Positions 7,286 through 55,866 of a stretch of DNA of 64,000 nt are shown one piece after another. The notes under the pieces were generated by a model. That model worked only from the letters and a program-made list of their open reading frames with translations. It was not told the DNA's origin and made no database searches. The first letter of the stretch is position 1. Every line of letters begins with the position of its first letter. Origin of the DNA: Pelagomonas calceolata (Eukaryota); assembly GCA_918797485.1 (NCBI GenBank), contig CAKKNE010000002.1:1612001-1676000 (forward strand), written 5' to 3'. Made by a program: the position numbers and the translations under genes.

Positions 7286-10211
7286 ATGGCGCTCCGCGCC
7301 CTCGTCCTCGTCGCGAGCCTCCGGCCCACGCTCCAACAGGGCAAGGAGGAGGACCCGAACATCCTGGGGCGCATCGAGCTCGAGACGACGCAGGTCGAGC
7401 CCGTCAACGTGCGCGCGCTATGCTTCGAGGGTTTGGGGCAGCAATTGCCAGAAACCAGCTGCACGATGCTCGATCCCCGTACTTGTACCAAAATTGATAG
7501 CAAAGGCCGAGAAACCTGGGATGAAGATACATGCGACACGCTCCCAAAAGGCTCACCAATTTTCATGGAACGAAGCCCGGGCTGGAACGCCGCCGTTCAA
7601 TCCACGCCGGCCGGCGAGTCGGCCATGCTGTGTCTCCAGTGCTGCAATTCTATAGTACTAGAACCCTGCACGTCGAAAAACGGCAAACGACGGAAATGCA
7701 AGCAGAGCGAGGGCGTGAACGAGTACTGGCCCTTTCGGTGCCAGATCCCGCCGCGGCCGACGGGCGACGCGATGCGCAATATGCTACTCCGAGACTTCTA
7801 CGGCTACGAATTTAGGTTTGCGCGGAACCAGGGGAACCGGGCCATGGGCGTGCCGCACTACGACGACAAGCAGGTGGTCAAGTGCGCGTTGCCGCGCATG
7901 GGCTGCCAGTACGAGTACCCACGCGGGGTCTCGTACCAAGAAGCGCGCGTCAAACGGACGCCGGAAACGACCATCGACCCGCACCCGGGCTACGGCGATC
8001 CGACGTACGAAATCCCCGAGTGCTGCACGGACAAGGTGATCCAGGCTGGGAGGGGCCCCGCGAAGCATGTTGAGAGCGGGTGCACCTACGACGCGCGGTG
8101 CATGTCCTCCCAGGTCTTTGAGCGGGGTTTGCAATCGTGGATCAACGTCGCCGAAGCGAGTGCGTTGATGGACCTGCCCGTCCCATCACCTCCCGGCAGG
8201 GTCAAGCTCTGGGAGGCCGCGGTGGCCGCCGTCGCCGCGGCCGAGGAGGCCGAGGCCGCCGTTGTTGTGGATCGGGCGATCTGTTCCAGTAATACAACCA
8301 CCACAACCGAGGAGCAGGCGCTCTGCAGCGACCTCGCGACGAAGCAGCGCGCCGTCGAGAAGGCTAGGGACCACGAGAATCTCGCTCGATTGCATCGCGA
8401 CCGGCGGGACCTCGCCTGTTCGTCGACGGCGAACTCCTTCGAGGAGTCTGACGACTTCGGGTGGAAGCAGAAGGATGCATTTAATCGGACGGAGTACAAG
8501 TGCCGGTTGCCCGGTTCTGTGTATCGGGGCGAAGGCCCTTACGGTTTACCGGACGGTTCCGGATCCCCGACCGATAAATTAGCGAAGAAGTACGACAATC
8601 CCGCCAACGTCAGTGACTCAGTGTCTGTTTCTGACGTTTTCTGAACTTCAAGTTCGCGTCGACGGCGTCGTCGCGATGCCACTTCGCGTCGATGGCGTCG
8701 TGATGATCACATGAGAGTCTACGCGTCTCGTGAGTGAACGGAGACAGTTTCGCGACGGTGTCCGTTCCACACAGGCGAGGGACGCGTACCTCGACGGCGT
8801 GCGGAGTCGCGAATTGGAGTCCTCATGTAATTACAGAGACAGCCGCGACCGAGAACGCGGTAGCTACTTCCTGAAGGGCTACGACCTCACAATCTTCGTC
8901 GAAGAAAAAAGTTCGAACACGTACGGCTTCTGGAAGAGCGTCGTGGGCTGCCACGCGGAAACTACCGAAGTAGAACAGTTGTACGTCGACGGCGACATCT
9001 CCCAGGAGACGCCGGACGAGTCCCAGTACTTCCAGCGCATCAAGCTGCGACAGATGTATTCCGCGAGCTACGATTTTACGTATCACGACCAGGGCCTGCC
9101 CTTCATCATTATTGGGGTTGGCGTGTTTTTATTTATTGTCAGTAGGATCGTGCAGTGTATTAGAGATGAGCCCTGTCCCACCTGTGGCACTCGCTTGATT
9201 CTAGCGGGTCTGTCGGAACTCGCACCGTATCCCTTAGATAAGCGGCAATGTGCTCTATGCAGATTTTATGGCGCGGAGATGCCGGATCCGGTGTTGTTAG
9301 CTAGAATGAAAGCTAGATCAAAGTTCGTGCACGGCCGGGGCTTCTGCGAATACATCACCAGTCCACCAGGCGGGCGACCGAAGGGCTATTTTGGATGGTG
9401 TCGGTTATATGTATACAGATGTATCCGGGCGTCCATCATCATGCTGGCCTACGGGATCTACTATACGCTGCGATATATATTCGTACTTTTACTTATTATA
9501 GGAGACGCTTTATTACATTTCGGCGCACGATGTATCCTTCGTAGGAGGAGAGGCCCGGGGCCCGTGTGCTTACGAACGTTTATCCCGCGCGAGGAGGACA
9601 TTGTTGATGAAGATCCGCCCGTGCCCACCAAAATTTATGTCGCAGAACCGGCATTACGGTGCGAGAACTCGTTCCTGGCGTTAACACGACCCGTGCCCAA
9701 CGCTGAAAGGAGGATGGTCACGAAGGAACAAGCCTATGTCAGAAGGCAGAGAGCGGAGAGAAGGAAGAAGAAAATTGTACGAAAACGGGAACGCTTGCAA
9801 TACGCCATGCGCTACCTCGGCGCGAACTCCGAGAAAGATCAAGCGCAGCTGGCCAAATTGGATGCGGTGGTGGCGCACTTGGACGACGAGATCGAGAAGG
9901 CCAGAGTTGCGGAGGCCGACGACATCCTTTCCGTCAAGGAGGACGTCGAGGCGCCCTTAGCGTTGGAGGAGACGAAGGAACCAGGTCAAGCGGGGTTCGA
10001 CGCCGTGCGCGCCGTCTCCCGCTTTGCGGATCCTGCTCCCGAGCCGGAGGAGGAGCCGTCGCCTCCTGAAGAAGAACCCGAGAAGACGCCCAAAAAGTTC
10101 GCCGTCGCCTCCGAGAAAGGTGTGGGCGCCGGCGTCGCCCTCTTCCTGCAGAAGGAGCAGCCGGAGTTCGTCAACGGCGTACGGGTCCGGGCGCCGAAGA
10201 AGGATAAATAA
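7286..10211 (+). CDS. Cys-rich membrane protein with signal peptide; join(7286..8608,8775..10211)
   Basis: Signal-like N-terminus and two hydrophobic segments; phase-0 intron 8609-8774 joins the two ORFs. Confidence 0.65.
8609..8774 (+). mobile_element. Introner-like intron, family B
   Basis: GT...ccacacag; shares tgactcag.gtctgtttc and gtgagtgaacggagacagtttcg.gacggtgtc with intron 14550-14714. Confidence 0.8.
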
Positions 10212-11503: not shown

Positions 11504-13921
11504 ATGCCCGGCGTTCAGAGGGACGCGGGCGCGTGGGACAAATCCGACGCGGGAACCGACAGCGATACTGACAGCAGCGACGGCCGCGTCGTACGCGTGA
11601 ACATGGGCGACGCCAGCGACGACGAGGCAACGCCGGACGAGTACCGCTGGCTCGGCGACGAGCACGAGGACCTCGGCCGGGTTGATTCCGTGCCGGCTCG
11701 GCTCGACGGGATCGGCTGGACCGACGACGCCTTCCGCGCGGCGGCACTGCATGGCGAAGGCGACAGCAAGTTCCACGAGGTGCTGGGCCGCGCGGCGGAG
11801 GCCTCGCGGAGCTTGGACCCCTACGACCCGACGTGCCGGAGCTTCTACGTCCGCGTCGACGGCGTCGGTTTCACGAACTGGTCGAAGACGCACGGAATAG
11901 CGAAGCCGTACGACGGCGCCGTCCACGGCGCCTTCGTGAGCGCGGCGGCCGCGACGATGCGCCACTTCAGACAAAAGGGCCTGGGCGTCGTCGCCGCGTA
12001 CACGCAGAGCGACGAGGTCACGTTCCTGTGCGCGGGCCCGGCGGTGCTCGCGGGCGGCGCGTCGGACCCCAGTAGGCGGCTCCTCACGCTCTTCACGAGC
12101 GTCTTCTCGAAGCGCTTCGAGCAGGCGCTGCGCGCGACGAAGCCCGAGGCCGCCGCCGAGGCCTTCTTCGAGGCGCGCGTCGTTGCCGCGGCGACGCGGT
12201 CCGCCGGCATCCTGGCGCTGATCTGGCGCCGCCTCGACGCCACGCGCAACGCCTCGTCGCAGGCGCTGCGGCACCTGCACGGCGTCCGTGTCCAGCAGGA
12301 GCTCCCGCCCGTCGACGAGGCGCTGCTCGCCGACCTCACGGCCGGGGGCGTCCCCGAGATGCGCGCGCGGAGGGCCCTGATGGCGGGGAGCGCGACCGCG
12401 GACGCCGCTCGAGCCTGGCTCCGGAGCCACGCGGAGGGCATTGATGACCCGATCGAGATGATCGGCCGCCCCCACGCGCGGCAGCGGCTCTTGTTAGCGG
12501 AATGTGGCACGCCGTGGGACACGCTGCCGCCGGCGCTTCGGTACGGGACTTTACTCTTCGCCGGCGACGACCGCGGCCGCCACGTTCGGTTACGTGTGCC
12601 GCGCACGCGCGACGAGGCCGAGGCGCTTGAGCGCGCCATCTTCGACGAGCAGTCCTGGGACACTCTTGGCGACGCGCATCCGGAGGCGCCGGCCGCGGCC
12701 GCGGCGGGCCCGGCACGCGGCAGGCCCGTGCCAGCGGCGCGCCCGGCCCCAGCCGCGCCGGTTATTGGACCGGCGCCCCCCGCTGGCTTTGTCCGCGTCG
12801 ACCGGGGCTGTCCGGCCCTCGACCGAGAAGGCCGCGACGACCGGTGGTGCGACGCGGTGGAAACAAACCCGAGCCAGAACGCGTGGGGCCGCCTCGCCGA
12901 GCGCGTCGCCAACGAGTTCGCCGGCGTGCTGCTCTGGGCGAAACCGGTCCAGCCGGCAAGATCCGGCGATCCGTCGGCGGGTTGGCGCGTGGCGGTCCTG
13001 CGCCTCGAGCGCGTCGAGCCTGCCGGACCCACGCTCACGTTCGCCGTCGAGGGCGCGGGGTTCATCAGTCAACAGAAGGCGGCGAAACACGCGGCGGCGG
13101 CATCAGTGGCGCCCCTCCTCGACGCGGCGCTCGCCGCGGACCGGGCGAACGACGTGACGACCGCGCGGCAACGCGCGCGGCCGCTGAGCATCCTCGAGCG
13201 GCTGTCGCAGGCCCGCAGCTGGCCGGCGCCGGAACCTTCGGGAAGCGACGCGGTCACGTGGGGGCCCGAAGGCGCCGTGGCGCGCGCGCCAAGGTGCGCC
13301 AAGGGCGGCGGCGACAAGCTACAGCTCGCCGCGCTCGTCGCGCTGCGCTCGCTCGACCTGGACGCCGTCGCCGCGGCCCCGGTAGCACCCGCACCGCCGC
13401 CGCCGCCGCGCCCGCAAGAACAGTCGGTACCGCCACCGGCGCCCAGCGCGGCCGGCGGCCGCGTCCTCGACCTCGCGATCGCGATCTGCGGCGATACAAA
13501 CGCCGGTCGGCGGCGGGACCGAGGCGGCCGCGAGATGACGCGGGAAGAAGTCGACCAGCTCAAGAAACGCGTCGAGGGCCGGCGGGTGGCATGGGGTTCT
13601 CCGGGCAACACGTCGAGCGGCGTTGTCGAAGATGTTACTCTCATCGGCGCGGACTCGCTCAAGTTGTCTGGATTTTCCGGTCTGGACGTGACGGTGGCGA
13701 CCTACTACCGCCTCCAGGGCGACGGCGAGAAATGGGGCGTCCGCGCGGCCGTGAAGCACCTCGGCCACGACGACGACCGCGTCGCCGAGCTCCGGGCGGC
13801 CCTCGTCCGGCGGAAGCCGCTGGAGTACCAGTCCTTCCCGTGCCTCGTCGTGCGGCAGTCGCGGAAACAAAAAGTGCCGGACAACGTGCCCGTCGAGCTC
13901 GCGTCGCTCGTCGGCGCCTAG
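11504..13921 (+). CDS. Thg1-like 3'-5' polymerase fused to two dsRBD-like domains and a C-terminal PAZ domain
   Basis: Thg1: YVRVDG, KPYD, YTQSDEVTF, FEARV, WRRLDATRN, WDTLPPALRYGT. dsRBD-like: GAGFISQQKAAKHAAA and PLSILERLSQAR...LAALVALRSL. PAZ: LKKRVEGRRV...VTVATYY...LEYQSFPCLVV...VPVELASLV. Confidence 0.85.
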   Translation: MPGVQRDAGAWDKSDAGTDSDTDSSDGRVVRVNMGDASDDEATPDEYRWLGDEHEDLGRVDSVPARLDGIGWTDDAFRAAALHGEGDSKFHEVLGRAAEASRSLDPYDPTCRSFYVRVDGVGFTNWSKTHGIAKPYDGAVHGAFVSAAAATMRHFRQKGLGVVAAYTQSDEVTFLCAGPAVLAGGASDPSRRLLTLFTSVFSKRFEQALRATKPEAAAEAFFEARVVAAATRSAGILALIWRRLDATRNASSQALRHLHGVRVQQELPPVDEALLADLTAGGVPEMRARRALMAGSATADAARAWLRSHAEGIDDPIEMIGRPHARQRLLLAECGTPWDTLPPALRYGTLLFAGDDRGRHVRLRVPRTRDEAEALERAIFDEQSWDTLGDAHPEAPAAAAAGPARGRPVPAARPAPAAPVIGPAPPAGFVRVDRGCPALDREGRDDRWCDAVETNPSQNAWGRLAERVANEFAGVLLWAKPVQPARSGDPSAGWRVAVLRLERVEPAGPTLTFAVEGAGFISQQKAAKHAAAASVAPLLDAALAADRANDVTTARQRARPLSILERLSQARSWPAPEPSGSDAVTWGPEGAVARAPRCAKGGGDKLQLAALVALRSLDLDAVAAAPVAPAPPPPPRPQEQSVPPPAPSAAGGRVLDLAIAICGDTNAGRRRDRGGREMTREEVDQLKKRVEGRRVAWGSPGNTSSGVVEDVTLIGADSLKLSGFSGLDVTVATYYRLQGDGEKWGVRAAVKHLGHDDDRVAELRAALVRRKPLEYQSFPCLVVRQSRKQKVPDNVPVELASLVGA

Positions 13922-13953
13922 GTCGCGGCGCCATGTGTGTATGTTGCACTGTA

Positions 13954-15853
13954 CTAGGAATACTTATTCGGCGACGTAAATGAGGGAGGCGCGTGGAAGG
14001 ACTCCTTGAAGGCCACATATCTCGATAAGTCCGAAGCCAGCGCGCTTTCGTCTCGCAACTCCGCCTCGGACTTCGCGTTGTTGTAGTCGACGCACGCTTG
14101 CGCGACGACGCGTTCACACAACCTTTCCAGATAATGCGATGCCATGGCGTCGTCCATGGTGCACAAGACGGGCAACCGTCCTTGATGGGTCGTCTTCGCG
14201 CCGCCGCCGCCCCGAACCTTGGCTAGGAACGTTATGGTAAATTCGTCGCCACGTCTCTGCGTCTCGACTTCCACTTCTAAAGGTAGATTCGGCTTCCCAC
14301 TCGCATCACAAGCCTTCAGGTCGTCTCTCCTTACTAAATGGCGGGCCTCTCCCGCTTTACTGACGGGCACGGGCTCGCTCTTTTTGAGGGGAAACCGCCC
14401 GACCGTGTAGGGCGTGTCGTAGTCGCGGTCCAGGAAGTCGCGGTCGATGATCGGCTCGGGCAGCGGCGTCACGGGTCTCGTATTGGGCGTCCGCACCCTT
14501 CTAGGTTCCGCACCTGGTTGATCGTAGTCTGAATCGTCTTCGTCAAATCCTGTGTGGGAACGACACCGTCACGAAACTGTCTCCGTTCACTCACGAGGCG
14601 CGTAGACGCCCATGCGGTCGCATCGACGGCGTCACGGTGGCATCGCATCGCGTTGACGCCATCGACGCGAAGTTCAAGTTGAGAAATTGAAGGAAACAGA
14701 CGCTGAGTCAGCACCATCGTCCCCATAATTCTCGTCGGGGTGGAAGCCGTCGTCGCCCCTCACCTCCGAGGCCGTACCTCGTCCTCTACCAACCGTCGTG
14801 CCCGGCCTTCCTTCGTGAAAGCGTTTTTTCGGTTTTGTGGTTCCGGGCCGCGCCGCGGGACCCTCAAAATCAAAACCCGCGGGCATCTCGAAGTCGTCGT
14901 CGGCGTACTCGTCTTCACTTTCTGTTTCTCCTTTCAGTCTAGCCTTCATCTTGGCCAGTCGTCGCGTCTTGCCCGAGGCCAATGCAGCTAAATCGCGATC
15001 CCTCTGCACCAACCGATGCTTCGCTCTTTCCACGGCTAACCGGACCTTCGCTTCTCTCTCCGGAGTCGTCCGGGCTCTTCGTTTACACCACGCGTCCCTC
15101 GCCCTCGATATTTCCGACATCGACGGCTCCGGTTCCAAGGCAGCGCACTTCGACTTTTGGTCGAGCAGCGAAAAGTCCTTCATGTGCCGCTTCAGGAACA
15201 CCAACTGGTCCATGCGATCCTTGTCCCACTGCTTCGACGAGTAGCAGGGGTTGAGCTTCCGGAGCCGTTCGGCGTGGTACGCGTTCGCCGCGTTGATGCG
15301 CCGTTGTTCTCTTTTCGCGCCGATGATGTTCTTACTATTCGAGATCTTGTGTTCCACCGCCGCCACTTCAAATTCGGTGGGCGTCGAAATAATGCTAGCG
15401 AACCTTTTTATCAACCCGACGTTCGCGCTCCGGATCTCCCTTTGTCTTTCGTTGTGGGCGGCCTTCTTCTTGGCCCCGTAGGTTTTGGAACCAAATCTCA
15501 GGTGTTCGTGCGTCGCCGAGTAGGGGAGCCTGCGCGGAGCATTTCTGTCAAGAATGGCCTCAAAGTCGAAAAAGAAACGACCCACGACCTCGTCTCATGG
15601 ACACGAGTCACATCAACAAAGTGAAGGCGCCTCCACACCTCAAAACGCGGAGATCGCACGTGTGGTCCGTGCCCTTCTTGTCGGAGCCCGGTTTGCGATG
15701 CGCGGTCTGCTCGAGCGTCTTTCGGTGTTTGCTGTAGAGTCGGTTCGAGGCCTGGACCCTCCCATCGATGCGCATGACGGGCTTCGGCGCCTTGAGGAGC
15801 TTCTCGTACTGGTCCCGCACGGACGTCGGGCGCTCCTTGGCGGCGGCGCCCAT
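13954..15853 (-). CDS. CFAP97/Hemingway-domain ciliary protein, two introns
   Basis: RQREIRSANVGLIKRFASI, REQRRINAAN...RLRKLNPCYSSKQW; intron 14550-14714 plus one at about 15546-15660; start codon uncertain. Confidence 0.6.
14550..14714 (-). mobile_element. Introner-like intron, family B
   Basis: gtgctgactcagcg...cccacacag; phase 1, restores frame; homologous to 8609-8774. Confidence 0.8.
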
Positions 15854-16208
15854 GGTGGCTGGCTGCCCGCGCGGGCGGTCCGTGGGCTTGGCGTGGGCCT
15901 CGGCGCGGGCTTCGGGCACCCGCGGGCAGCCGGTGCTTGGCTCCTGGTGCGGCTGTGCTGCGGCTTTTGGCGCGGCGTTGAGAGCGCCTCCACTGCCTCC
16001 GCTAGAGGGGCGCCGTCGTCGGAAGGATGCCTGCCCTTGCCGAGGGATGTCCTCGCTCTCGACGGGTCCGCGGGGAAGCCTGATACCGACAAAACCCCGC
16101 ACGTCGACCGCGCGCGGCCGGCCTGACATACCTCGTGCCTGCTCGACGGGATATGTTACTGGCTATGGCCCGTCGATGGGTCAACGGAGTTTTCACATGC
16201 TTCTTATT

Positions 16209-19200
16209 TCACATGAACGGGAGCTTGCCGTCCAATAGGGCGGGGTGGAACGGGAAGTCGTCGCCGACCCCCGGCGCCTCCTCACCGTTCTTGATGACCA
16301 GGCGCTTCGCGTCGCAGACCAGCGACGCCATGTAGGAGAGGGCGGGCAGCTTGACCGCGCGGTTGGCCTTCGGGTAGGCGTACGCGAGCGCCGCGACGAT
16401 GCTCATGAGGACGTCGGGCGGGCACTGGGCCTCGTTGAGGATGACGCGGCAGTGCTGCAGGTTGTTGCAGCCCTGGATCCCGGCGTACGTGTTCACGAAG
16501 AACTCGTGCGCCGTCGGGTGCGTCAGGCCCGAGTCGACGAAGAGCGACGGCGGCACGTTCATGGAGCGGTCGTTGTCGGTGCCCGACTCGCGGCTCGGGA
16601 AGACGCGGACCCGGCTCTTGGTCATCGGGCAGTAGGTCAGATGCACCTCGCCGTCGAAATGCGCGGACGCTTTCTCGCGGATCCGACGCTTGATCGCCGC
16701 CGGCTCGAGCTCCAGCATCCGGCGATGGTCCTCGCCCGCGAACGCGCCCGTGCGGAACGCGACGACGAGCTGCGGTGGACCATTAATTTCTGCGAACTGG
16801 CTTAGCACGTCGCAGACGGCGAGGCCGATCACATCCGCGAGGTGCTCGTCCAGGCGCGCGTCCAGGGGCGCGACGCGCGACGCGAACCGGAACTGCGACA
16901 TGAGTTTGTCGACGGTGCAGGCCGCCGTGACCATCGAGGGGATCGCCGAGTCGTAGGCGCCGGCGAGCGTGACGTGCACGGCGACGAGGGCCGTCGGCGC
17001 CGCGCCCGTCCACGGGTGGAAGTCCACCGGCGGCTCGCCGTTCGGCCTCGCGGACTCCGCGGAGACGACGGCCCGGTTCACGCCGCCGAACTTGGCGTTG
17101 ATCTTGGCGGCGATCGCGCGGACGATGTCCCGGTACCGCGCTGATCCCGCCGTCTTCAGCGACTCGACGGTGACGCACGACGTCATGACGCCCGTCTGGT
17201 GCTGGAACCGCTTGATCACACCGTAGTCGTTCTCGCTCAGGGACGCCTGGGTTTTCTTGATGACGGCCAGTACGAGGTCCGGCTTGGCGACGCCGCAGCG
17301 CTGGCAGGCTCCATACACCTCGTGGGTCACGTCGCCAACAGAGGAATCCGGCCGGACGACCGCCACCAACACCGGGCCGGGGCCGCCCCGCCCCGACGGG
17401 TCGAACGGGTCGCCGAGCTGGATGTCGATGTCCCTGCACGCGCGGCGGAGTTCGTCCACGTAGTTCCTGACGGCGTCGGGCGACGCGCGGCCGCCGCCCA
17501 TGTCGAGGACCAGGACGTTCCGGTGCTCGGGCGCCGCGACGCGGAAGACCTGGTTCTCTTGTCTCCACTCGCCGAGCTTGTGCCCCCCGAGCTGGAGGAC
17601 GCGTCCTCGGTTCCGCGCGAAGAGAAGCGGCGCCGGAAAAATCTTGGCGACGACGGCGAGCGATCGCGGCGCGAGCTGGAGCCCGATCGCCGCGAGGGCC
17701 GGCGACGACGTGATGCGGCTCCGCGCGACGTGGTCGACGATCTGCCCGTGTCGCGCGGAAGGCCGCACGGAGAGCAACCTGATGATTTCGTCGGCCATGT
17801 TGATGCCGCGCGCGTGCTGGCCCTCCTCGAGCCGCAGGCGCTCGGCCGGGATGTAGATGACCTTCTCGATCTTCTTGCCGTCAGCGTCGCGCTTGGGCTG
17901 GCGCCGCTTAAGGCCGTCCTCGCCCATGACCTCTACGTACTCGAGGCCCGCGTCGATGCGGATGACGGGGTGGTGCGGAAACCGTAACGGGTGGCCCTTG
18001 CGCTCCTGGTACGTGGCGATGGAGATGGTCTCGCCGTTGCGCTCGAAGGTCATGTCGCTGGCCGACGTGGCGACGAGGCGGCCCTTGTCCTTGAAGTTCT
18101 TGCGCGAGATCTCCGCGAACTCGTCGGCCCCGCCGAAGTCCTTCCGCAGGATCGTGACGTTCTTGCGGTGCAGCAGCTGCTTGAGCTTCTCTACGTCTTT
18201 CGGCGAGCGCGGGCCCCGCTCGCCGAAGAGCGCGATGATCAGGTCCGCGACGGTGGAGAGAGCGCCCGGCGTGCGCACCGCTGCCTTCGCCACGAGGTCG
18301 ACCGCGAGGCACATGCCCGCCTCGCAGTTGCGCACCCCCACGTCGACGCCGAGGAGGATGTCCAGGCCGCCCTCCCGGCAGCGCACCGGCTCGCCCTGGA
18401 CCAGGTACGTGCCGCTGCCGAGGTCCCAGTACCCGTTCTGCGTCATGTGCGCCTTGATCGCGAGGTCGATGATGGTCGAGAAGTGGTGCCGCTCGCCCGT
18501 GCAGGCGTCCACGAGCTCGCCGCTCGCCGTCCGCGCCACGTCGACGGCGGTGCTCCGGAGCGCCTCGGCCACGTCGATGGTGGTGGCCGCCTGCAGCTGC
18601 ACGCGCCACCGGCGCCACGGCTTGCCGGCCACGGGCGCGACCACGACGCCCGACGCGGACATGTGCGGCTCGAGCCGCCCGCACGCGTAGAGCATCCGCG
18701 CGCCGTCCGAGAAGACCTGGACGCGCGCCTGTTCGCCCACGGCGCGCATCGCCTCGAGCGTCCGCCGCTTCTGCGTCTCGGAGGGCTTGCGCGTGCCATC
18801 GGCGAGGACCTCCTCGGGCCGGGCGCCCGCGCCCGCGGGCGCGGCGACCACCGGGGGCGGGGGCGCCGGCGCGGCGTCCGGCGCGGCCGGCGCGGCGTCG
18901 CCGTCGGCCACGAACTCCTTCTTCAGGTGCCGGACGTGATAAACCCAGATCGTGTCCGTGGCGGCGCCGGGCGCCGGTACGAGGCGCCAGACGTTCGTAG
19001 CCACCGGCGCTTCTCTATAAGGCACCCCCAAAGACGGACCCCGCGGCTCGATCCATCCGCCGCCGACGGTGAGCGCCGAGAGTCGATCTTCGAGCGACCC
19101 GCCCGGCTCCACCGTGGACAGCTGCCGCTCCTCCGTGCCGACAATATCGTGGTTGTCGATCGGTATCAGCTCGCCTCGACCGCGGCCGCGGCCTCCACCG

Positions 19201-19313
19201 CCGCGGCCTCCGCCGCGGCCTCCTCGGCCGCGGCCGTCGAACGGGCGCCGCCCGCCGCCGTAACCGCCGCCGCCCTCGTGCGGCCGGCGCCTGCCGCCGG
19301 CGCCGCCGTACAT
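16209..19313 (-). CDS. AGO: Argonaute protein (RG-rich N-terminus, PAZ, MID, PIWI), predicted slicer-inactive
   Basis: PAZ ISIATYQ...LRFPHHP...YIPAE.L.L..GQ; MID YGVIKR...TSCV...KINAKFGGVN; PIWI NVPPSLFVDSGLTHP...EFF...GIQG...LAYAYPKANRAVKLPA. Confidence 0.93.
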   Translation of the reverse strand: MYGGAGGRRRPHEGGGGYGGGRRPFDGRGRGGRGGGRGGGGRGRGRGELIPIDNHDIVGTEERQLSTVEPGGSLEDRLSALTVGGGWIEPRGPSLGVPYREAPVATNVWRLVPAPGAATDTIWVYHVRHLKKEFVADGDAAPAAPDAAPAPPPPVVAAPAGAGARPEEVLADGTRKPSETQKRRTLEAMRAVGEQARVQVFSDGARMLYACGRLEPHMSASGVVVAPVAGKPWRRWRVQLQAATTIDVAEALRSTAVDVARTASGELVDACTGERHHFSTIIDLAIKAHMTQNGYWDLGSGTYLVQGEPVRCREGGLDILLGVDVGVRNCEAGMCLAVDLVAKAAVRTPGALSTVADLIIALFGERGPRSPKDVEKLKQLLHRKNVTILRKDFGGADEFAEISRKNFKDKGRLVATSASDMTFERNGETISIATYQERKGHPLRFPHHPVIRIDAGLEYVEVMGEDGLKRRQPKRDADGKKIEKVIYIPAERLRLEEGQHARGINMADEIIRLLSVRPSARHGQIVDHVARSRITSSPALAAIGLQLAPRSLAVVAKIFPAPLLFARNRGRVLQLGGHKLGEWRQENQVFRVAAPEHRNVLVLDMGGGRASPDAVRNYVDELRRACRDIDIQLGDPFDPSGRGGPGPVLVAVVRPDSSVGDVTHEVYGACQRCGVAKPDLVLAVIKKTQASLSENDYGVIKRFQHQTGVMTSCVTVESLKTAGSARYRDIVRAIAAKINAKFGGVNRAVVSAESARPNGEPPVDFHPWTGAAPTALVAVHVTLAGAYDSAIPSMVTAACTVDKLMSQFRFASRVAPLDARLDEHLADVIGLAVCDVLSQFAEINGPPQLVVAFRTGAFAGEDHRRMLELEPAAIKRRIREKASAHFDGEVHLTYCPMTKSRVRVFPSRESGTDNDRSMNVPPSLFVDSGLTHPTAHEFFVNTYAGIQGCNNLQHCRVILNEAQCPPDVLMSIVAALAYAYPKANRAVKLPALSYMASLVCDAKRLVIKNGEEAPGVGDDFPFHPALLDGKLPFM

Positions 19314-19478
19314 GCTACTGGACTCCGTGTGCTACTTAGTGCACCCTCTCTGTAGCCTCTGCAGGCTGCGTAAAAAACGTGCCAGCTCGACCAATCGCAG
19401 GAGCTGCACTGCGGTTCTGCTTGCACGACTTCCGGAAGCTCCTGTGCTGGCGGAAGGCAACTGAGCGCAATTTGAGGG

Positions 19479-27309: not shown

Positions 27310-28624
27310 CTACTTCACCTGACACGCGGCGCGCAGCGCATCAGAAAACGTCGCCGCGTCCCACTGTCCGAGTTGCCGCAGCAGCCGTTTGGCGGGCTCG
27401 GCACTCACCAACTTGTACGGGTCCGGATCCAGCCTAAAATGGTGCGCCGCATTCAATATAGTTTGGCAGTTCCGCGCGCGAATTAGGACATACAACGCGT
27501 CGATCTCACAACGTTGCAGGGGACAAACACTATGATATGCTGCCGTAATCGCACAAGCTCGCTGTAGAATCAACATGGTCTCGGCCGGGTCCAGCACCGA
27601 ATCGGCCAACAGTGAAGTCATGCTTGACCCTTTCCCGTCGAAGAGCGCGTAAGCCAGCAAAATGGCCAGATCAAACACGCGACAGCTCCGCACGAAGTCC
27701 CCGAAGTCCACGAGACCCGGCCTGACACCAGCTTCGTCGACCTGTGTTGATTGATACCGTCGCGAAACTGCCGCTGCTCTCTCGCGAGACGCGTGGACTC
27801 TCATGTGGTCATGAAGACGGCGTCGACGCAGCGAGGCACCGCGGCGACGCCGTCGACGCAACTTGAAGTTCGGAAACGTTCGGAAATCACGCTGCGTCGC
27901 GGACCAGGATGTTCTCGTCGTTCGCGTCCCCATGAATTAATTGGCGAGGCAACAACGCGTACGGCGGCGACGCGAGGAAGGCGTCGAACGCATCCAAAGC
28001 TTTCGTGACTCTCTCCTTGACCTCGTCGTCGAACAATTCGTTGAGATAAGGTCTTGACACTGTTGAAACGTTCGCGAGGTCCCAAGCAAGCATCCTCTCG
28101 GAAGAGTCGGCTCCATCACTACGCGGTTCAAAGTGCTCCAATGCGACATCAGTTGCGCCCATGACCTGGCCCAGGGCCCGGTCCAAAGCGCCATTCGCCT
28201 GGCCCCGACACTCGCTCAGTGGAATACCCTCGACCCACGTAATGACGCGCGCGAAACACGTCAGGGACTTCCAGGTGAACTGGACCACGGCCTCACCATG
28301 ATCAGACGCGCGGACGTCCGGCGCCCGGACGCCCGTCGTCCGCACGGCGCGCATCATCGTGTGTTCACAGTCCAAGGCCGCCCTCGTCGCGTCGTCGCCC
28401 GCATGGCCCCTACAAGCGGCGCCACTGGCAGCGATTTTGAGGACGTATGTTTTATCTATCGCTTCTTGTGAGCATTGGACTATCACTTTCCAGTTTTGGT
28501 CGTCATAAGACGGTAACGGTAGGCAGCGGCGGACGGCGCCGACTTTGGCGTAGTGGTCCTTCATTAATTGAGTGGCTTCGGCTGGCGTGAGGAGGGGGCG
28601 GACCTCTTCCGTGAAGGTGGCCAT
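27310..28624 (-). CDS. Aminoglycoside phosphotransferase / hydroxylysine kinase-like; intron 27742-27904
   Basis: LPSYDDQNW, YVLKI, LIHGDANDENIL|VD, GLVDFGD, FDLAILLAY. Confidence 0.8.
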
Positions 28625-30229: not shown

Positions 30230-33200
30230 CTAACTACTCAACCTTAGCTCCCTCACGAGCTCCGCGAGCTTCGCCATCGCGGCGCGCTTCCGATGGCCCG
30301 CAAAACCGTTGGAGGTCGCGTCCGAGACGAGGGATAAGAGAGACGCCGTGTCCTTCGGCGTCAGCTCGACCGCCTCGTCAGTCGCCGCCGCGAGCGCCGC
30401 CAATTTCTCCTTCAGAGTACTCTGATCAGTACCGTCCCCGACCATGCGCGCCATCGACACCAAGCGCGCCCCGTTCAGCGTCAGCGCGCGACTTAGCCGC
30501 TGCCAGCAGCCCCACGTCCGGAAGTGCTTGTAGAACAAGGACAGGGCCGGCTCCTGCTCGAGCAAGTGACAAAAGTCCATCGCATCCAGCGCGTGCATCT
30601 GCGTCACCGCCGTCGCGTGGCAGGAATAATGCCTCAAAATCTTCTCACGCGCGCCGCACGCCTGTGTGCTCAAAATCAAAAAAGAAACGACCCCCGGCAT
30701 CGTGCGATGGCCACGAGTCTCATGGACACGACGGGACGCCGTATACATACCAGCATCGCGATGTCATCGCCGATGAACTCGTCGTCCTGCTTCACACTTA
30801 TCCCGAAAGTTTTTCTCGCGTCGTAGTTCAAACAACACACTTTCCCGTGCTCGATGACGTACATGACGTCGTTCAGACTCAGGTCCTTGTGGACGATGAC
30901 GTCGAAGGTCATGAACAGTCGCGTCGTGAATAAGGAAGCGACCTTCGAGAGAAATAGATCCCGCTGGAAGTGCAAGCGTTGTATTTCACCTCGTCTAAGA
31001 TGTAACAAGTCCGGAGGTAGAGGTGGGGGCTCGATGTGCGTATGCCTGACGTTCTTTTGGACCTCGCCTGCGCGGAGCATCGCGGTCTATGGACACGAGT
31101 CGCGTCGATGGCGTGAAGGGACGCCGCGAGCGCACCGTCGTCGAACTGCACATCATATCGCAACAGTGAAGGAGATCTAAGTACGAGAGCAGGTCTACCC
31201 ACACTCATTTCTTCATCGTCGCCCCGCTCCCACTCGCGGTCATGGACCAAGACGCGCTGGCCCTTGGGGTAGCCCCCCGTCCGCTGCACCGTGTGAGCAT
31301 AAAAAGGGATCTTCTCGACGACGTGGCCCATCTTCTTGCGAGCCACTACCGATATAAGTGTAGGTGATAGTTTCGTGAGCATCTCCTTGTTGAAGTGGTC
31401 CCGGAAACAAGGTTCCGACAGCATGATGTACTCCCGCAGCTTGAGTCGTAGGTCGTTGTCGAAGCCGCTCCGATGCATGTAGTCGTTCAAATTATCTAAA
31501 GTTTGTTTAAATTCATTCGCCACGGGGTCCAAATTACTCATGATGTTCGACAGGTCGCCGATGAGGAACGCCATCACGATGATGCCCCCGAGCATCACCT
31601 GCGTGGCGGTTTCGCGTGTTGCCGCGGTTTTCTGGCGAGATGACGCCATCGACGCGACTCGTCTCCGTCTCACAATGAAGTGGGTGCTTTGGTTTTCGAT
31701 TTTGGGCCGATTCGGGCGAAGGCGACGGGACGCCGCGACGCGACCAGCAGACCTAGCACGCCCTCGCCGTGCGTTCTTGTACTAGCCTCACCGTTAATAG
31801 CGACGAGCGCCCAGACCGCCGCCTCCACGTACTGCGCCCAGATGCCGTCCCGGTAGTTACTCGTCGAAGTTAATATGGTCTGGGGGCAATCATCCCATGA
31901 GCACTCTGCTAGTGTATACTCCGTCACCAATTTCAAAGCGCAGGCCGTCCAGTGGACGATGACGATGAGCACGACGCAGTATTTGATCACGGTCTGTAAT
32001 TTGGTGGACATGTCGACGTGCTTGGCGATGTTGTTGACGAGCTCCTGCGACCGGAGGACCTGCGTGGCGCTTCGTCGATTTCGGAGGCGCGCTCGCGAGA
32101 CACTCACCTTGGCGAGCTTCATCAGCCGGAAGACTCGCAGTAGTCTTATCGCAGAAGCTTGTTTGGATTTGATCATGTACTCGACGGGCAGCATCGACAC
32201 AACGTCCAACGCCATCCAGCCGCGCGCGTAGTGGAGTGCTATCTGGTCGAAGCGCAACAGCCACTTGTTGAGCTGTGGATCGTAGACGGCCGTTAAGAAA
32301 TTGAAGATAATATCGACAATGAATAACAAATTAACAGTCCAATTTGTTATAAACAATCCGGTATATTTATTGGGAAACGGCGTGTAGTTCTTGCTCCAGC
32401 CCACCGCAGACACAAAGGCCAGCTCGAAGGGCGTCACGATCATCACGAAGCCTGCGTGGAAGTGACGCTATCTCGGCACCGCGGTCCTCGGAGAGGCCCA
32501 AACCCGGACACGACGTTCCTCAGACCACGAGAGACCACGAATTGAAGGGCGCTTGAACTTTGCTTGCCACACGGGACCACACAGATCATGAGCATCATCA
32601 AAATGTCCCATTTCAATCGCCATTTTTGTAGAGGGTCCATGACCAGCCAGTGGGCCCGATGCCTCGGGAACTTGTTCGACCGCATGTCATCGAGCAGCTC
32701 CTTCTCGATGTCGTCGTCCTGCTTCTCGAAGAGGCCTATGAGGTCCGTGAAGGTCGTTCGTGAGCGGGCGCGTTTCATTTTCCGCAGCCGTTGGCGTTTT
32801 TCTTTCGCGAGGGTCGAAGAGGTGGAGTCCGACGACGACGTGCGCTTGATCTTTGCCGGTGTCTTGTGCCACGAACTTCGCGTCGGTGCGGCTTGTTGCG
32901 CCGTCATCGTCAATAATTGGCCGCCCGTCGGCGTTTGGTCAACTGGCTTCTTTTTGAGGAGCTTGGCCGGGTTGAGGAGGGAGACGGCGTGCTTGGCCTT
33001 GCGCCAGCGGCGCTTCGCTGCGGGTGTGGGAGGCGCCTGGACGTCGTCGGGGCTCCCCTCGACCTCGGGCGCGTCGTCGCTCGGCGTCGCGACCGGCGAA
33101 GGCGCATCGTTCAGGGCCGCGTCGGTCTGCCTTCGCAACGACACGACGTGCTTGACGTCGCCGTCCTTCGTTTCGCTGGGACTGCCCTTGTCTTCGAAGG

Positions 33201-44094: not shown

Positions 44095-44346
44095 GACAGC
44101 TGTGCGGATGCTTCTCCGCACCCCTCGCATCGCGCAGACGACAGCTCATTCGGGACGCGTCCGATTCAAAGCACAGCGTAGCACAGCGGAGGCGCAGCGC
44201 AGCAATATGATGGCAATTACGGCCGGCACGAGGACAGTGATGGACGGCCAGGGCGCGTGGGCGCTGCAGGCGGCTGCCCAGTGATCACGCAACCGGGGGG
44301 AATTCCAGCGGTGGCGCGCAGGACCTGCCGGAGACGAATTGGCACC

Positions 44347-47300
44347 ATGAGGCTGCCCAAAGTCCTGCTGATGATGGCAGCCGCCCGGGCCCAGGAGCTC
44401 GAACAAATACGCCTCGAGTTCTTGGTAGATCATCTCCAGGAGACCATGGCCGACGCCTGGGACGTCACGGGCACGGTGGCCGAGCTCGTCGAGTCGGCCG
44501 TGCCGGACCACCAAGCTGATTTGGTAGGGGGCGCCGAAGCTTTACGCAAGGCCATCTTCGCGTCCCTGCGCATGTTGGCCGAAGAGGGCCGGGTCTACAT
44601 GATGTACGCGGGCTTCGAGGCGGACGGGACCTTCTGCGGGTACTACGGCGAGGGACAGAGCTCGCGAGGCGACGACTACTACTACACGCTGCTGCGGGGC
44701 TGGGACTGCGCCTGGAACTACGTGGATTCGTGCGCGACGGACTGCGCCGGGGACTGCGTTGCAGACGTGACCGTGCCGTGTGTTGATGGCTACAAGGGCG
44801 CCAACCCCGATTGTAGGCGCTACTACGACGTGTCCAGCGACACGGGCGTACCTGATACTTGCGCCTCGGCCGTGAGCTGCACGACGTATTTTGATGATCA
44901 CTACAACACGGCAGTCTACGACCCGCGCATGCGGCCCTGGTACACTAAGGTCAATGCCGCGACGCCGCGCGCCTGGTCGAGCGTCTACCCCTTCGCGAGC
45001 GAGGGCGTGCTGGGCATCACGGCGGCCTGGCGCTTCGCCAACAGCGGCGGCGGCGTCGTCGGGTTGGATCTGAAATTGGGCTCCATAAGACAGATCGTCG
45101 CCGACGCCTACGCCGCCGCCGACGGCTCATTCACGCCGGCCTACGTGACGACGGCCGATGGTTTATTAGTGGCCGCCTCGGATTCTAGTGTTGCGCTCGT
45201 GGATGGTGACGGAAATCCAGTAACCGCTACAAATTGCTCGTCGGCCGCGATCCGCGCCGGCGAGGCGTACCTGGCGACGTCAACCAGTTTCACGGGCCGG
45301 GCGGACGCGATCCTAGAAATAGAGGGCGTCCCGTACTGGCTCTTCCGCGGCGCCGTGGCCGACGCCTACGGCCTCGACTGGAGAGTCATCGCATTACATA
45401 CAGCCGCGTGCCGCGCGGGCTACGGTTTGCGGGGCAGCGCCTGCGCGCCCTGCCCCAAGGGCGCGGCGTCGGCCGCTGGAAAACCGTATTGCGACGTCCG
45501 CGCGCACCACTACCGCTTCGTGGAGAACGCGGTTGAAGTGTATGCGTGCCCGGCGCACGACGACGCCTGCCGCGGCCAGCGCGGTGATCATGGAGCCGGC
45601 GACGCGTTGTGCGCGCGCCGGGCGACGGGCCCGCTCTGCATGAGATGTATGAGGGGGCACCACCGGGTCGTCACGCGGAACGGTAGAGCAAGATGTAAAA
45701 AATGTGGCGACTGGCGGTCCATCGCGGGCGTCTACGTTTATTTGGTTGTTTTTGTGGGCTTGGCGTTCATCTGGTTGGCGTGGGCGCGCAAGGCGTTAGC
45801 GCGCGAGGTGCGGACGCTCGCCGACCGCTTACGAGCTAGAAGCCGGCTCCAGGGCTTCGACCGCGCGCTGCCGACGCTCTGGATCGTGGCGCGCCAGGCC
45901 ATCTACGCGATCACGGTCATGTCTCAAGTCAGGAGCATCGAGCGGTTGAGTCTGCCGCGGCCGTATAGTCATCTCATGGACGCGCTGACGGCGTTCGCGA
46001 TCGATATTGATAAATACTTGGGGCCGTTGGCGTGCTTCGAACTTGGGTATTATCAACAATTGATATTTTGGACTCTGTTACCTCCCGTACTGTTGATGAT
46101 AGCGGTGTCCCTGACGGTCGCGTCGGTCTCGATGCATCAATTACTCGCTAAACATCGCCTGACCTCAAAATTCAAGCGCCAGGACGAGTTCCGACGATCC
46201 TCAAGACCATCATTGCAGGAAGCTTCAAGAAGGGCCTGGGAGGCCGTGCGGACGCAGATTAATGCTGTGGTTGCCTTTAGAGCAAATACCCATTACAAAC
46301 CACCTATACAAGAAGACAAGGTCGTGACGATGGCGGACGCGCTACGTAAAGTCGTCACGGGCTGGGTCATCCTGTGCATCTATCTCCACTCATTTATTTG
46401 TGGGGTCATTTATAAGGCGTTCGTCTGCGCAAGGCCTTTACAGAGTGAAAAGTTCTTGACGGGACGAGGTGAGAAAGCTTTTTTACGGGCGGACTACGGC
46501 TTGGTGTGCGGCACGCAAACACACAAAGCTTACGTATTGTACGCTACACTAATGTTAGTAGTGTACGCGACCTTCCCCGCTATATTAGCGTTACGACTTT
46601 ATATCAACAGAAAAGACGGTAAACCGGACAAGTATCTAGGGTTCATGGTGTCCCACCTGCGGCCGGGCGCCTGGTGCCTCGAATGCGTCGCGATGTGGTA
46701 TCGCATGGTGCTAAGTGGCGCCTTGTGGTTGTTTTTCCGGAGGGATGATGATGTGGTGCGCTTGGGGTTGTGTGTGGTCTTCGTCATCTTGTTCGTGGCC
46801 GCCATCAGTTTTTTGCGACCCTATGCCACGGAAGGTAAGAGGCAAGCGTGCACGATGATCCAGCACTCTCTCTTAATTTTCTTCTGTCTGGCTATTGCCG
46901 TCAAAGGTGAACTTTTCAGTCCGAAACGCTTCGCCTTGTTTGGCACTTTGGCGTTTGTCGCCACGATTGGACTGGCGTGTGGCGTGGCCTGGCATGTCTG
47001 GCGGGCCGACGTTCGAGCACTCGTGGATGGCCTGCACGCCCATAAGCTAGATAGACTGGCACTCAGAAGGTTGTATGAAGGGGCCGAGAAGGCGGTGATC
47101 GGTGAAGCGATCCTCGAAGCGGCGTTGGTACCGATCGAGGGCGGCGTCGAGGCTAGTGACGAGCGCTGGGAGTTTGTGGAGAGCGAGCTGTTCGGGTCGC
47201 ATGGGGCGACGCGCGACGTGTTGCGGGACGTCTGGGACGACCCCGGTACCGAAGATCTGGAGCCCTGGCTTGGGGCCGTAAGAGCCCAGGCGTCGCGGAA

Positions 47301-55384: not shown

Positions 55385-55866
55385 GGTCTCCCTGTAGCTT
55401 ACGGTCCTGGTTCTGCGACGCCCGGCGGTGGGCGGAGGTGTAGTTTCCACTTTCCACGAGTGGGGTTGTGGCCTCCGGGCAGCCCGGCGGCCGCTCCTCG
55501 CGGTGCCGCTCGGCCGGCGCTGCCAAGCTCTCTGAGCAGCAAAGGCTAGTGCCTCTGCTAGGCGAGTGTGACGCGAGGCCCCGCGAGGGCGTCGCGCGCG
55601 AGGCGTGCCTGGGGCCACACGCCTGGAGCGGTCCTCCGCCCCGCCTGTCTTCAAATGGTCTTGTGTGAAACCCCCAAGCTCTCCCAGCGCTCGGTGTTTG
55701 CGCGCCGCGCCCACGCCCCAGCGGTGGTGACGGGCGCTTCCGGCGAGGCAGCAGCACGCCGTGACACCGCAGCAAGCGCACCACCGCAGAGAGACAAGGG
55801 CAGCACGCCGTAAGAGGCAGCCCCCTCTACAGACAGCAAGCGCCCGGCCGCCGCCGCAGCGTAAGG

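What the first reader, a model, noticed from the sequence alone, without database searches (positions are those of the whole stretch)
11504..19313. Putative RNA-silencing mini-cluster: Thg1-dsRBD-PAZ gene convergent with a non-slicing Argonaute
Seen: two PAZ-containing, intronless genes face each other 2.3 kb apart with one unrelated CFAP97-like gene between them, while many neighbours carry introns. Their PAZ regions share layout (VLDL...DQLKKRVEGRRV...VATYY...LEYQSFPCL...VPVE versus VADL...EKLKQLLHRKNV...IATYQ...LRFPHHPVI...IPAE). Inference: a functional pair of guide-modifying enzyme and guide-binding effector, with the fusion's PAZ possibly captured from an Argonaute. It might target the active DNA transposons seen here, or viruses.
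Basis: inference. Interest (0 to 1): 0.88.

Follow-up and report, generated by a model that had tools for sequence, protein, structure and literature searches.

The report
Reverse RNA polymerase fused to PAZ
This marine alga has an expressed gene that joins a backwards-working (3'-to-5') RNA polymerase domain to two predicted double-stranded-RNA-binding folds and an Argonaute-type PAZ domain, so it likely extends the 5' ends of small silencing RNAs; its place next to a predicted non-cutting Argonaute is real here but probably not a conserved cluster.

Summary
Both genes are real, intronless and transcribed. ORF A (11504-13921+) is a Thg1-like (TLP) 3'-5' polymerase domain with its catalytic residues intact and a UBA insert. 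Two predicted dsRBD folds and an Argonaute-type PAZ follow it; Pfam misses all three. Aureococcus has the same domains in another order (dsRBD-dsRBD-PAZ-X-TLP), so the combination has been kept through a rearrangement. ORF B (16209-19313-) belongs to a divergent Argonaute clade that includes Aureococcus and has lost the slicer tetrad. Intronless genes are the norm in these algae. The fusion's PAZ matches generic Argonautes far better than the neighbour's PAZ, so it was not copied from it. Linkage is seen only in very close relatives, and indirect contig evidence argues against it in a sister lineage. Best reading: the protein fills in recessed 5' ends of short duplexes with 3' overhangs, in a small-RNA pathway (about 50%, untested). 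Main rival: tRNA 5' repair. I found no paper describing the fusion, but two relevant reviews could not be read.

The parts
11504..13921 (+). ORF A, 805 aa: acidic N-terminus, TLP-type Thg1 domain with UBA insert, dsRBD, dsRBD, PAZ; single exon, transcribed
11825..12286 (+). Thg1/TLP catalytic core (aa 108-261). R117, D119, K134, S169-D170-E171 and R225 retained; ATRNAS in place of the eukaryotic HINNLYN motif
   Evidence: Pfam Thg1 E 3.3e-17; alignments to solved Thg1/TLP; Foldseek top hit BtTLP 4kgm E 2.9e-8; positions; residue roles from PMC6471195 passages
12305..12454 (+). UBA-like insertion within the Thg1 domain (aa 268-317); absent in Aureococcus
   Evidence: Pfam UBA_7 E 1.5e-4 here, above cut-off in P0004 and P0008; PDB 2dai E 6e-4
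12467..12658 (+). Thg1 C-terminal (fingers) segment, aa 322-385, 73% identical to Aureococcus-like P0012
12866..13147 (+). dsRBD-like fold 1 (aa 455-548), predicted at low confidence; two deep sequence types among relatives
   Evidence: (Dus2 dsRBD Z 8.0; TRBP and Loqs Z 7.4)
13157..13360 (+). dsRBD-like fold 2 (aa 552-619); basic motif of helix 2 looks degenerate (motif recalled)
   Evidence: DCL4 dsRBD2 Z 7.8, HYL1 Z 7.7; weak Pfam dsrm_Ferlin in 6 of 14 relatives, E 0.07-0.23
13451..13918 (+). Argonaute-type PAZ domain (aa 650-805) with a private ~30-aa helical insert; Y734-Y735 of the 3'-end pocket kept, other pocket aromatics lost
13954..15853 (-). Intervening three-exon gene with weak CFAP97 similarity; more highly expressed; no RNA-silencing domain found
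16209..19313 (-). ORF B, 1034 aa Argonaute: RGG N-terminus, PAZ (aa 353-495), MID with Y697/K701/K737/K741 kept and Q>S712, PIWI with slicer positions H780, T855, S997; single exon, transcribed

Best explanation
ORF A is an expressed fusion of a TLP-type 3'-5' RNA polymerase domain with two predicted dsRBD folds and an Argonaute-type PAZ, and it likely fills in the recessed 5' ends of short RNA duplexes that carry 3' overhangs, as a step of a pelagophyte small-RNA pathway. Shown: domain content, intact catalytic residues, transcription, retention of the combination in Aureococcus in permuted order, and co-occurrence there with an orthologous AGO lacking the slicer tetrad. From the literature: TLPs extend 7-19 bp duplexes with 3' overhangs in a templated way in vitro. 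Inferred: the dsRBDs hold the duplex, the PAZ anchors one 3' end (probably the far end, HEN1-like, since the polymerase needs the near overhang as template), and the TLP adds templated nucleotides to the 5' end. That would change guide length, first nucleotide or 5' phosphate state before loading into the non-slicing AGO. The genomic adjacency is probably local to this lineage, not a conserved cluster.
For: Thg1 domain and catalytic residues. HINNLYN anticodon motif absent. PAZ by fold and by profile. dsRBD folds. Same modules in another order in Aureococcus proteins and in an independent contig; Thg1 core 58%, PAZ 44%, dsRBD2 41%, dsRBD1 25% identical. Transcription. AGO clade with 0 of 8 rows keeping the first catalytic Asp, against 27 of 28 generic AGOs; SH-aLRT 100 in a quick tree; includes Aureococcus. 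TLP activity on short duplexes with 3' overhangs: PMC11404450, passages. Non-tRNA TLP substrates: PMC5041481, abstract and discussion part 1. Mosaic, deeply split dsRBD types among close relatives, which fits a conflict-related gene better than a housekeeping tRNA enzyme (inference).
Against: No biochemistry and no small-RNA data. The dsRBD-PAZ model is low-confidence (mean pLDDT 53.9, 4 sequences), and dsRBD Z-scores of 7-8 sit at the tool's caution line. The PAZ pocket is partly degenerate (Y338-equivalent is N). The best fold match for dsRBD1 is the tRNA-binding dsRBD of Dus2. All proven in-vivo TLP substrates are tRNAs. The published duplex assays used 5'-triphosphate substrates and 8-nt overhangs, not 2-nt. 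No genome is held, so I could not check for a separate canonical Thg1, a Dicer or an RdRP. The K44-equivalent is M/L in Aureococcus and R in the sister lineage. Linkage to the AGO does not appear conserved.
Confidence: 0.5

Rival explanations
1. ORF A is a tRNA or structured-ncRNA 5'-end enzyme (G-1 addition or 5' repair). The dsRBDs bind the acceptor-T helix and the PAZ holds the 3' CCA overhang; it has nothing to do with Argonaute.
For: Known in-vivo TLP roles are on tRNA. dsRBD1's top fold match is the Dus2 dsRBD. An acceptor stem also has a recessed 5'-P and a 3' overhang (established knowledge). A canonical Thg1 in this genome was not checked.
Against: No HINNLYN motif. PAZ is Argonaute-type and, from recall, nearly confined to silencing proteins. 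The dsRBDs are highly polymorphic, and a Thg1-less variant occurs on 2 contigs, which is unexpected for an essential tRNA enzyme.
Confidence: 0.22
2. ORF A is an AGO-independent conflict enzyme that binds viral or transposon dsRNA, or nuclease-cut RNA, and repairs or blunts its ends.
For: Mosaic dsRBD types. Giant viruses and jumbo phages carry Thg1 domains, and the Atlas's top structural row for the TLP part is a mostly viral cluster (a lead only). Linkage to the AGO is weak.
Against: Viral matches are no better than cellular ones (best E 4e-7 against 3e-8, 18% identity, different libraries). No relative was found in viral contigs. GC3 is high and host-like, 0.88. An AGO orthologue co-occurs in Aureococcus.
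Confidence: 0.15
3. One reading: ORF A and the AGO are a selected, co-inherited gene cluster, and the PAZ came from that AGO.
For: Chance adjacency within two genes is about 0.02% for a fixed pair and 0.1-1% for any pair among 4-10 silencing genes (before allowing for the many windows scanned). Linked in one other close assembly (shared contig length 295,344). Both genes show deep allele types and high GC3, 0.88 and 0.93.
Against: The PAZ is not closer to the neighbour's clade. No shared contig length in the putative sister lineage, though the test does recover known linked ORFs. Different downstream gene in L001. An unrelated spliced gene lies between them.
Confidence: 0.15
4. A decaying or accidental chimera, or a gene-model artefact.
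For: Low expression with gaps in raw-read depth; several database relatives are frameshifted.
Against: One contig spans the ORF unbroken. Full-length fusions occur on at least 7 independent environmental contigs. Catalytic residues and modules are kept in Aureococcus.
Confidence: 0.03

Closest known systems
Thg1-like proteins (BtTLP 4kgk/4kgm, MaTLP 5axk, Dictyostelium DdiTLP3/TLP4, Acanthamoeba AcaTLP2)
   Same: Same palm fold and catalytic residues; no HINNLYN motif; DdiTLP4 and AcaTLP2 extend short duplexes and non-tRNA RNAs in vitro.
   Different: PMC2904730 (parts 2-3 read) says most Thg1 proteins stand alone and names only tandem duplication in plants. Here there is a UBA insert, two dsRBD folds and a PAZ; identity to solved TLPs is only 17-21%.
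Plant HEN1 (recalled; not fetched)
   Same: Layout logic: dsRBDs plus an end-binding domain plus a catalytic domain that modifies small-RNA duplex ends.
   Different: HEN1 methylates 3' ends and uses a La-type domain. This protein has a PAZ and a polymerase predicted to extend 5' ends. No homology is claimed.
Dicer and its dsRBD partners (HYL1, DRB4, TRBP, R2D2, Loqs)
   Same: Tandem dsRBD folds and a PAZ.
   Different: No RNase III or helicase domain; the PAZ aligns with the Argonaute type, including the helix before it.
Non-slicing eukaryotic Argonautes (human AGO1/AGO4, nematode WAGOs; recalled)
   Same: MID pocket largely kept, slicer tetrad lost.
   Different: A separate, long-branched clade with at most 31% identity to generic AGOs among 150 listed hits; MID Q545-equivalent is S or G in 7 of 8 rows.

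Membership tests
Thg1/TLP 3'-5' polymerase superfamily | Thg1 profile match and palm fold | tested here: met
   Pfam 63.1 bits, cut-off 29.2; Foldseek: the 17 shown rows with E<=1.4e-5 are all Thg1/TLP
Thg1/TLP 3'-5' polymerase superfamily | Three metal-binding carboxylates (D29, D76, E77) and R27/K44/S75/R131 equivalents | tested here: met
   D119, D170, E171, R117, K134, S169, R225; K96-equivalent is R; K44-equivalent lost in Aureococcus
Thg1/TLP 3'-5' polymerase superfamily | Templated 3'-5' nucleotide addition | not testable with these tools
   needs an assay
Bona fide eukaryotic Thg1 (tRNA-His G-1) | HINNLYN anticodon-reading motif with N161 | tested here: not met
   ATRNASS at that place, as in BtTLP ASKNSIS; so filed as TLP-type, not Thg1
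PAZ domain (Argonaute type) | PAZ fold and profile homology | tested here: met
   HHalign 97.3%, E 2e-11; Pfam PAZ itself does not hit
PAZ domain (Argonaute type) | Intact aromatic pocket for the RNA 3' end | tested here: inconclusive
   Y311/F312 equivalents kept (Y734-Y735; WW in Aureococcus); F294 and Y338 equivalents lost (human numbering recalled)
dsRBD | alpha-beta-beta-beta-alpha fold | tested here: met
   secondary structure; dsRBD entries dominate the 50 VIA rows over model 27-120 and 124-191, Z up to 8.0; model confidence low
dsRBD | Basic KKxAK motif of helix 2 and actual dsRNA binding | tested here: inconclusive
   QQKAAK here, TRKDAL and SKKDAI in relatives; degenerate in dsRBD2 (motif recalled)
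Eukaryotic Argonaute | N-PAZ-MID-PIWI layout and 5'-phosphate pocket | tested here: met
Slicer Argonaute | DEDH/D tetrad | tested here: not met
   H780, T855, S997; glutamate-finger column ambiguous
Conserved eukaryotic gene cluster | Linkage kept across species | tested here: inconclusive
   shared contig length in one close relative, none in the putative sister lineage, different 3' neighbour in L001; the Aureococcus AGO and fusion records come from different assemblies and cannot be compared
LOTUS/OST-HTH (extra domain in the Aureococcus protein) | Profile or fold match | tested here: inconclusive
   no Pfam or PDB sequence hit; not folded

The most novel reading that the evidence does not exclude
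Pelagophyte algae have an undescribed RNA-silencing step in which a 3'-5' polymerase, aimed by its own dsRBDs and PAZ, rewrites the 5' end of small-RNA duplexes. It would set guide length, first nucleotide and phosphate state for a lineage-specific non-slicing Argonaute whose 5' pocket has changed. This would be reverse polymerisation serving gene silencing rather than tRNA biology.
Probability: 0.4. Interest if true: 0.92.

Novelty: new variant of a known kind. Interest (0 to 1): 0.78.

Why it matters
The natural non-tRNA substrates of eukaryotic TLP reverse polymerases are an acknowledged open question (PMC5041481, PMC11404450). This protein names a candidate substrate through its own domains, short duplexes with 3' overhangs, and the idea can be tested with one purified enzyme and small-RNA 5'-end sequencing. 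Known small-RNA end modifications (recalled) act on the 3' end or on the 5' phosphate; templated 5' extension would be a new kind. A reverse polymerase with built-in duplex targeting may also be useful for 5'-end labelling. The non-slicing AGO alone is a known kind of protein, and the cluster claim adds little unless synteny is shown.

Tried and rejected
Sequence-only searches did not find the dsRBDs or PAZ (Pfam; PDB; Atlas). The A3 profile gave only a weak Ago1 PAZ hit, E 0.79. BLASTP of ORF A against the AGO gave nothing. The first metagenome scan found no relative among 55 pattern matches; the second gave 3 short loci out of 174, none long enough to test linkage to an AGO. Viral contigs: 0 of 79. 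Phage records: 2 weak hits at 30%. NCBIfam: none. Rfam: none in the window. A viral origin of the TLP was considered and is neither supported nor excluded; no TLP tree was built. Word-indexed AGO searches reached only 4 close relatives. Zero raw-read depth at 12176-12469 is not taken as a break, since contigs span it. The careful AGO tree did not finish; the quick tree is quoted, and the Aureococcus row is a long branch. No complex prediction was run because no direct binding is claimed. Earlier-findings look-ups gave nothing on these genes.
Full report
Setting. The window is about 64% GC. The only named relatives of ORF A are from Aureococcus anophagefferens, so the organism is a pelagophyte, probably Pelagomonas-like (inference). 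No whole genome is held.

Observation. ORF A (11504-13921, +, 805 aa) and ORF B (16209-19313, -, 1034 aa) converge 2,287 bp apart. In 4 of 4 stranded polyA runs, all of one sample, both are read on the expected strand at low depth, with no splice joints. The middle gene has two supported joints and higher depth. In a run whose contigs are spliced at those joints, one contig covers 11381-14548 with 0 differences and another covers 16196-19461. Both genes are therefore single-exon and transcribed. Being intronless is not special: P. calceolata has 0.45 (PMC9481584, passages) or 0.186 (bioRxiv 10.1101/2024.10.30.620910, passages) introns per gene.

Polymerase domain of ORF A. Pfam finds Thg1 (aa 113-228, E 3e-17) and a weak UBA. 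A model of aa 43-395 (pLDDT 66.6) matches only Thg1/TLP structures at E<=1.4e-5, best BtTLP. The carboxylates D119, D170 and E171 and residues R117, K134, S169 and R225 align with the catalytic residues named in PMC6471195 (passages; alignments; positions). The eukaryotic HINNLYN motif is replaced by ATRNASS, as in TLPs.

RNA-binding half of ORF A. A model of aa 429-805 from 4 sequences is low-confidence (pLDDT 53.9). Even so, all 44 Foldseek rows shown are Argonaute/Piwi, 17 matches reach E<=0.001, and VIA ranks Ago1 PAZ first (Z 9.8, 114 aligned, rmsd 4.1). dsRBD entries follow over two separate segments (Z up to 8.0 and 7.8). An independent sequence test agrees for the PAZ. A profile from 109 generic AGO PAZ slices scores ORF A 23.9 bits against at most 0.6 for 500 shuffles, and HHalign gives 97.3%, E 2e-11. 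The dsRBD calls rest on fold alone, and their basic motifs are partly or largely degenerate. The PAZ keeps the Y-Y pair and the L-x-Y/F-P-x-x-P-C block but has lost other pocket aromatics.

Conservation. The search returned 15 proteins among 7,994 scored candidates, limited to 442-1409 aa. Four environmental clusters are full-length in the same order. Aureococcus-cluster proteins (P0012, EGB03567.1, P0022) and an independent contig (L001) carry dsRBD-dsRBD-PAZ first, then an unassigned 80-aa domain, then the TLP without UBA. Identity to the window is 58% in the Thg1 core, 44% in PAZ, 41% in dsRBD2 and 25% in dsRBD1. Keeping the same modules in two orders is the strongest sign that the combination is selected (inference). 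Databases label the Aureococcus protein only as Thg1-domain-containing. Among close relatives the dsRBD pair comes in two types, 36-40% and 57-60% identical to the window's, while Thg1 cores are 87-94% and PAZ 75-94% identical. Within the other type identity is 94-100%. A 457-aa form without the TLP occurs on 2 contigs.

The Argonaute. PIWI E 2e-29. Against human AGO2 and 28 generic AGOs, the slicer positions are H780, T855 and S997; the MID pocket keeps Y697, K701, K737 and K741 but has S712 for Q. The exhaustive search found 1,594 proteins at E<=0.001 and listed 150. Eight selected rows (the window, close relatives, two unnamed lineages and an Aureococcus protein whose cluster holds KAK7234460.1, misnamed dienelactone hydrolase) form one side of a branch with SH-aLRT 100. 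That is a quick tree of 36 rows, using 28 of the 110 generic hits. None of the 8 keeps the first catalytic Asp; 27 of 28 generic rows do. Both genes thus co-occur in Aureococcus. Whether these algae also have a slicing AGO, Dicer or RdRP was not testable.

PAZ capture. Fusion against neighbour-clade PAZ: HHalign 6.7%, 37 columns, score 22.6 against a shuffle maximum of 20.8 in 100. With a fusion-PAZ profile over 224 stored proteins, the best domain scores (5-9.5 bits) are generic AGOs, and no neighbour-clade PAZ is in the top 40. Each PAZ has its own insert. The PAZ is Argonaute-derived but not a recent copy of the neighbour.

Cluster. Chance adjacency is low (0.02-1%, uncorrected for the number of windows scanned). 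A fusion fragment and an AGO share contig length 295,344 in one close assembly. In a lineage about 60% identical in both genes (assumed, not shown, to be one species), the 9 fusion-bearing contigs (3.5-79 kb) share no length with 12 + 8 AGO-piece records (2-42 kb). The two AGO pieces do share lengths with each other, which serves as a positive control. Only the longest contig per sequence is reported, and a break between the genes cannot be excluded. L001 has a different convergent neighbour within its 1 kb flank. Aureococcus records come from different assemblies. Verdict: linkage local, conservation doubtful. No other silencing gene and no transposase was among 49 ORFs scanned; the repeats found are short and intron-sized.

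Mechanism. DdiTLP4 and AcaTLP2 extend the 5' end of 7-19 bp duplexes along a 3' overhang in vitro, and their natural substrates are unknown (PMC11404450, passages; PMC5041481, abstract and discussion part 1). A small-RNA duplex has that geometry. I infer that ORF A binds such duplexes by its dsRBDs, anchors one 3' end in the PAZ and fills in the opposite recessed 5' end, altering guides for the non-slicing AGO (0.5). The main rival is tRNA 5' repair (0.22), since an acceptor stem has similar geometry and Dus2 uses a dsRBD for tRNA.

Prior art. Full-text search for Thg1 and PAZ: 0 papers. Thg1 and Argonaute: 15 papers, seen as listings, none about a fusion by title or abstract start. Further searches gave nothing on it. 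PMC2904730 (parts 2-3 of 5 read, plus a term search) reports mostly stand-alone Thg1; PMC6471195 has no 'fusion' or 'fused'. PMC2848206, PMC3145265 and PMC4513859 were seen as passages. Two Burroughs and Aravind reviews and two Cerutti reviews were not held, and no supplements were read, so an earlier mention there cannot be excluded. HEN1, WAGO and dsRBD/PAZ residue conventions are recalled.

Verdict. Observation confirmed. The fusion is real and, as far as searched, undescribed. The AGO is a known kind in a new clade. The cluster and local PAZ capture are not supported. Interest 0.78.

Noticed in passing
window 12866-13360: The dsRBD pair exists as two deeply different types (about 40% and 58% identical) among relatives whose Thg1 and PAZ are 75-94% identical to the window's; this looks like mosaic alleles or module swapping.
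   Followed up: partly
proteins P0010, P0263: A 457-aa variant keeps the N-terminus, both dsRBDs and the PAZ but lacks the whole TLP domain; seen on two contigs.
   Followed up: partly
window 16209-19313; P0017, P0052, P0054: The AGO also has two types: N domain 92-93% identical but L2/MID only 73-77%.
   Followed up: partly
L001 1057-1296: The Aureococcus-type protein has an extra ~80-aa domain between PAZ and TLP that looks winged-helix/LOTUS-like by eye (recalled pattern); no Pfam or PDB hit.
   Followed up: partly
P0012, P0020, P0022 (Thg1 domain): The lysine used for ATP activation of 5'-monophosphate ends (K44-equivalent) is M or L in Aureococcus, which may mean GTP activation or use of 5'-triphosphate RNAs.
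   Followed up: no
window 11504-11590; P0012 N-terminus: Both architectures start with a W-D-acidic motif (DYSKWD in Aureococcus) that recalls Cdc37/Hsp90 co-chaperone N-termini (recalled, untested).
   Followed up: no
KAK7234460.1 (P0225): An Aureococcus Argonaute is annotated as dienelactone hydrolase.
   Followed up: yes
window 14549-14710, 8614-8775, 27753-27859; 15559-15618, 30669-30728; 102-292, 57898-58088: The middle gene's introns belong to dispersed 78-88% identical repeat families, Introner-like.
   Followed up: no
window 13921-13960: The 3' ends of ORF A and the middle gene's transcripts meet or overlap slightly; one contig merges them.
   Followed up: no
window 44182-48435, 49655-55924, 58091-60910: Three long ORFs (1417, 2089, 939 aa) have no Pfam match.
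   Followed up: no
protein P0069: An AGO of the same non-slicing clade carries an N-terminal CCCH zinc finger.
   Followed up: no
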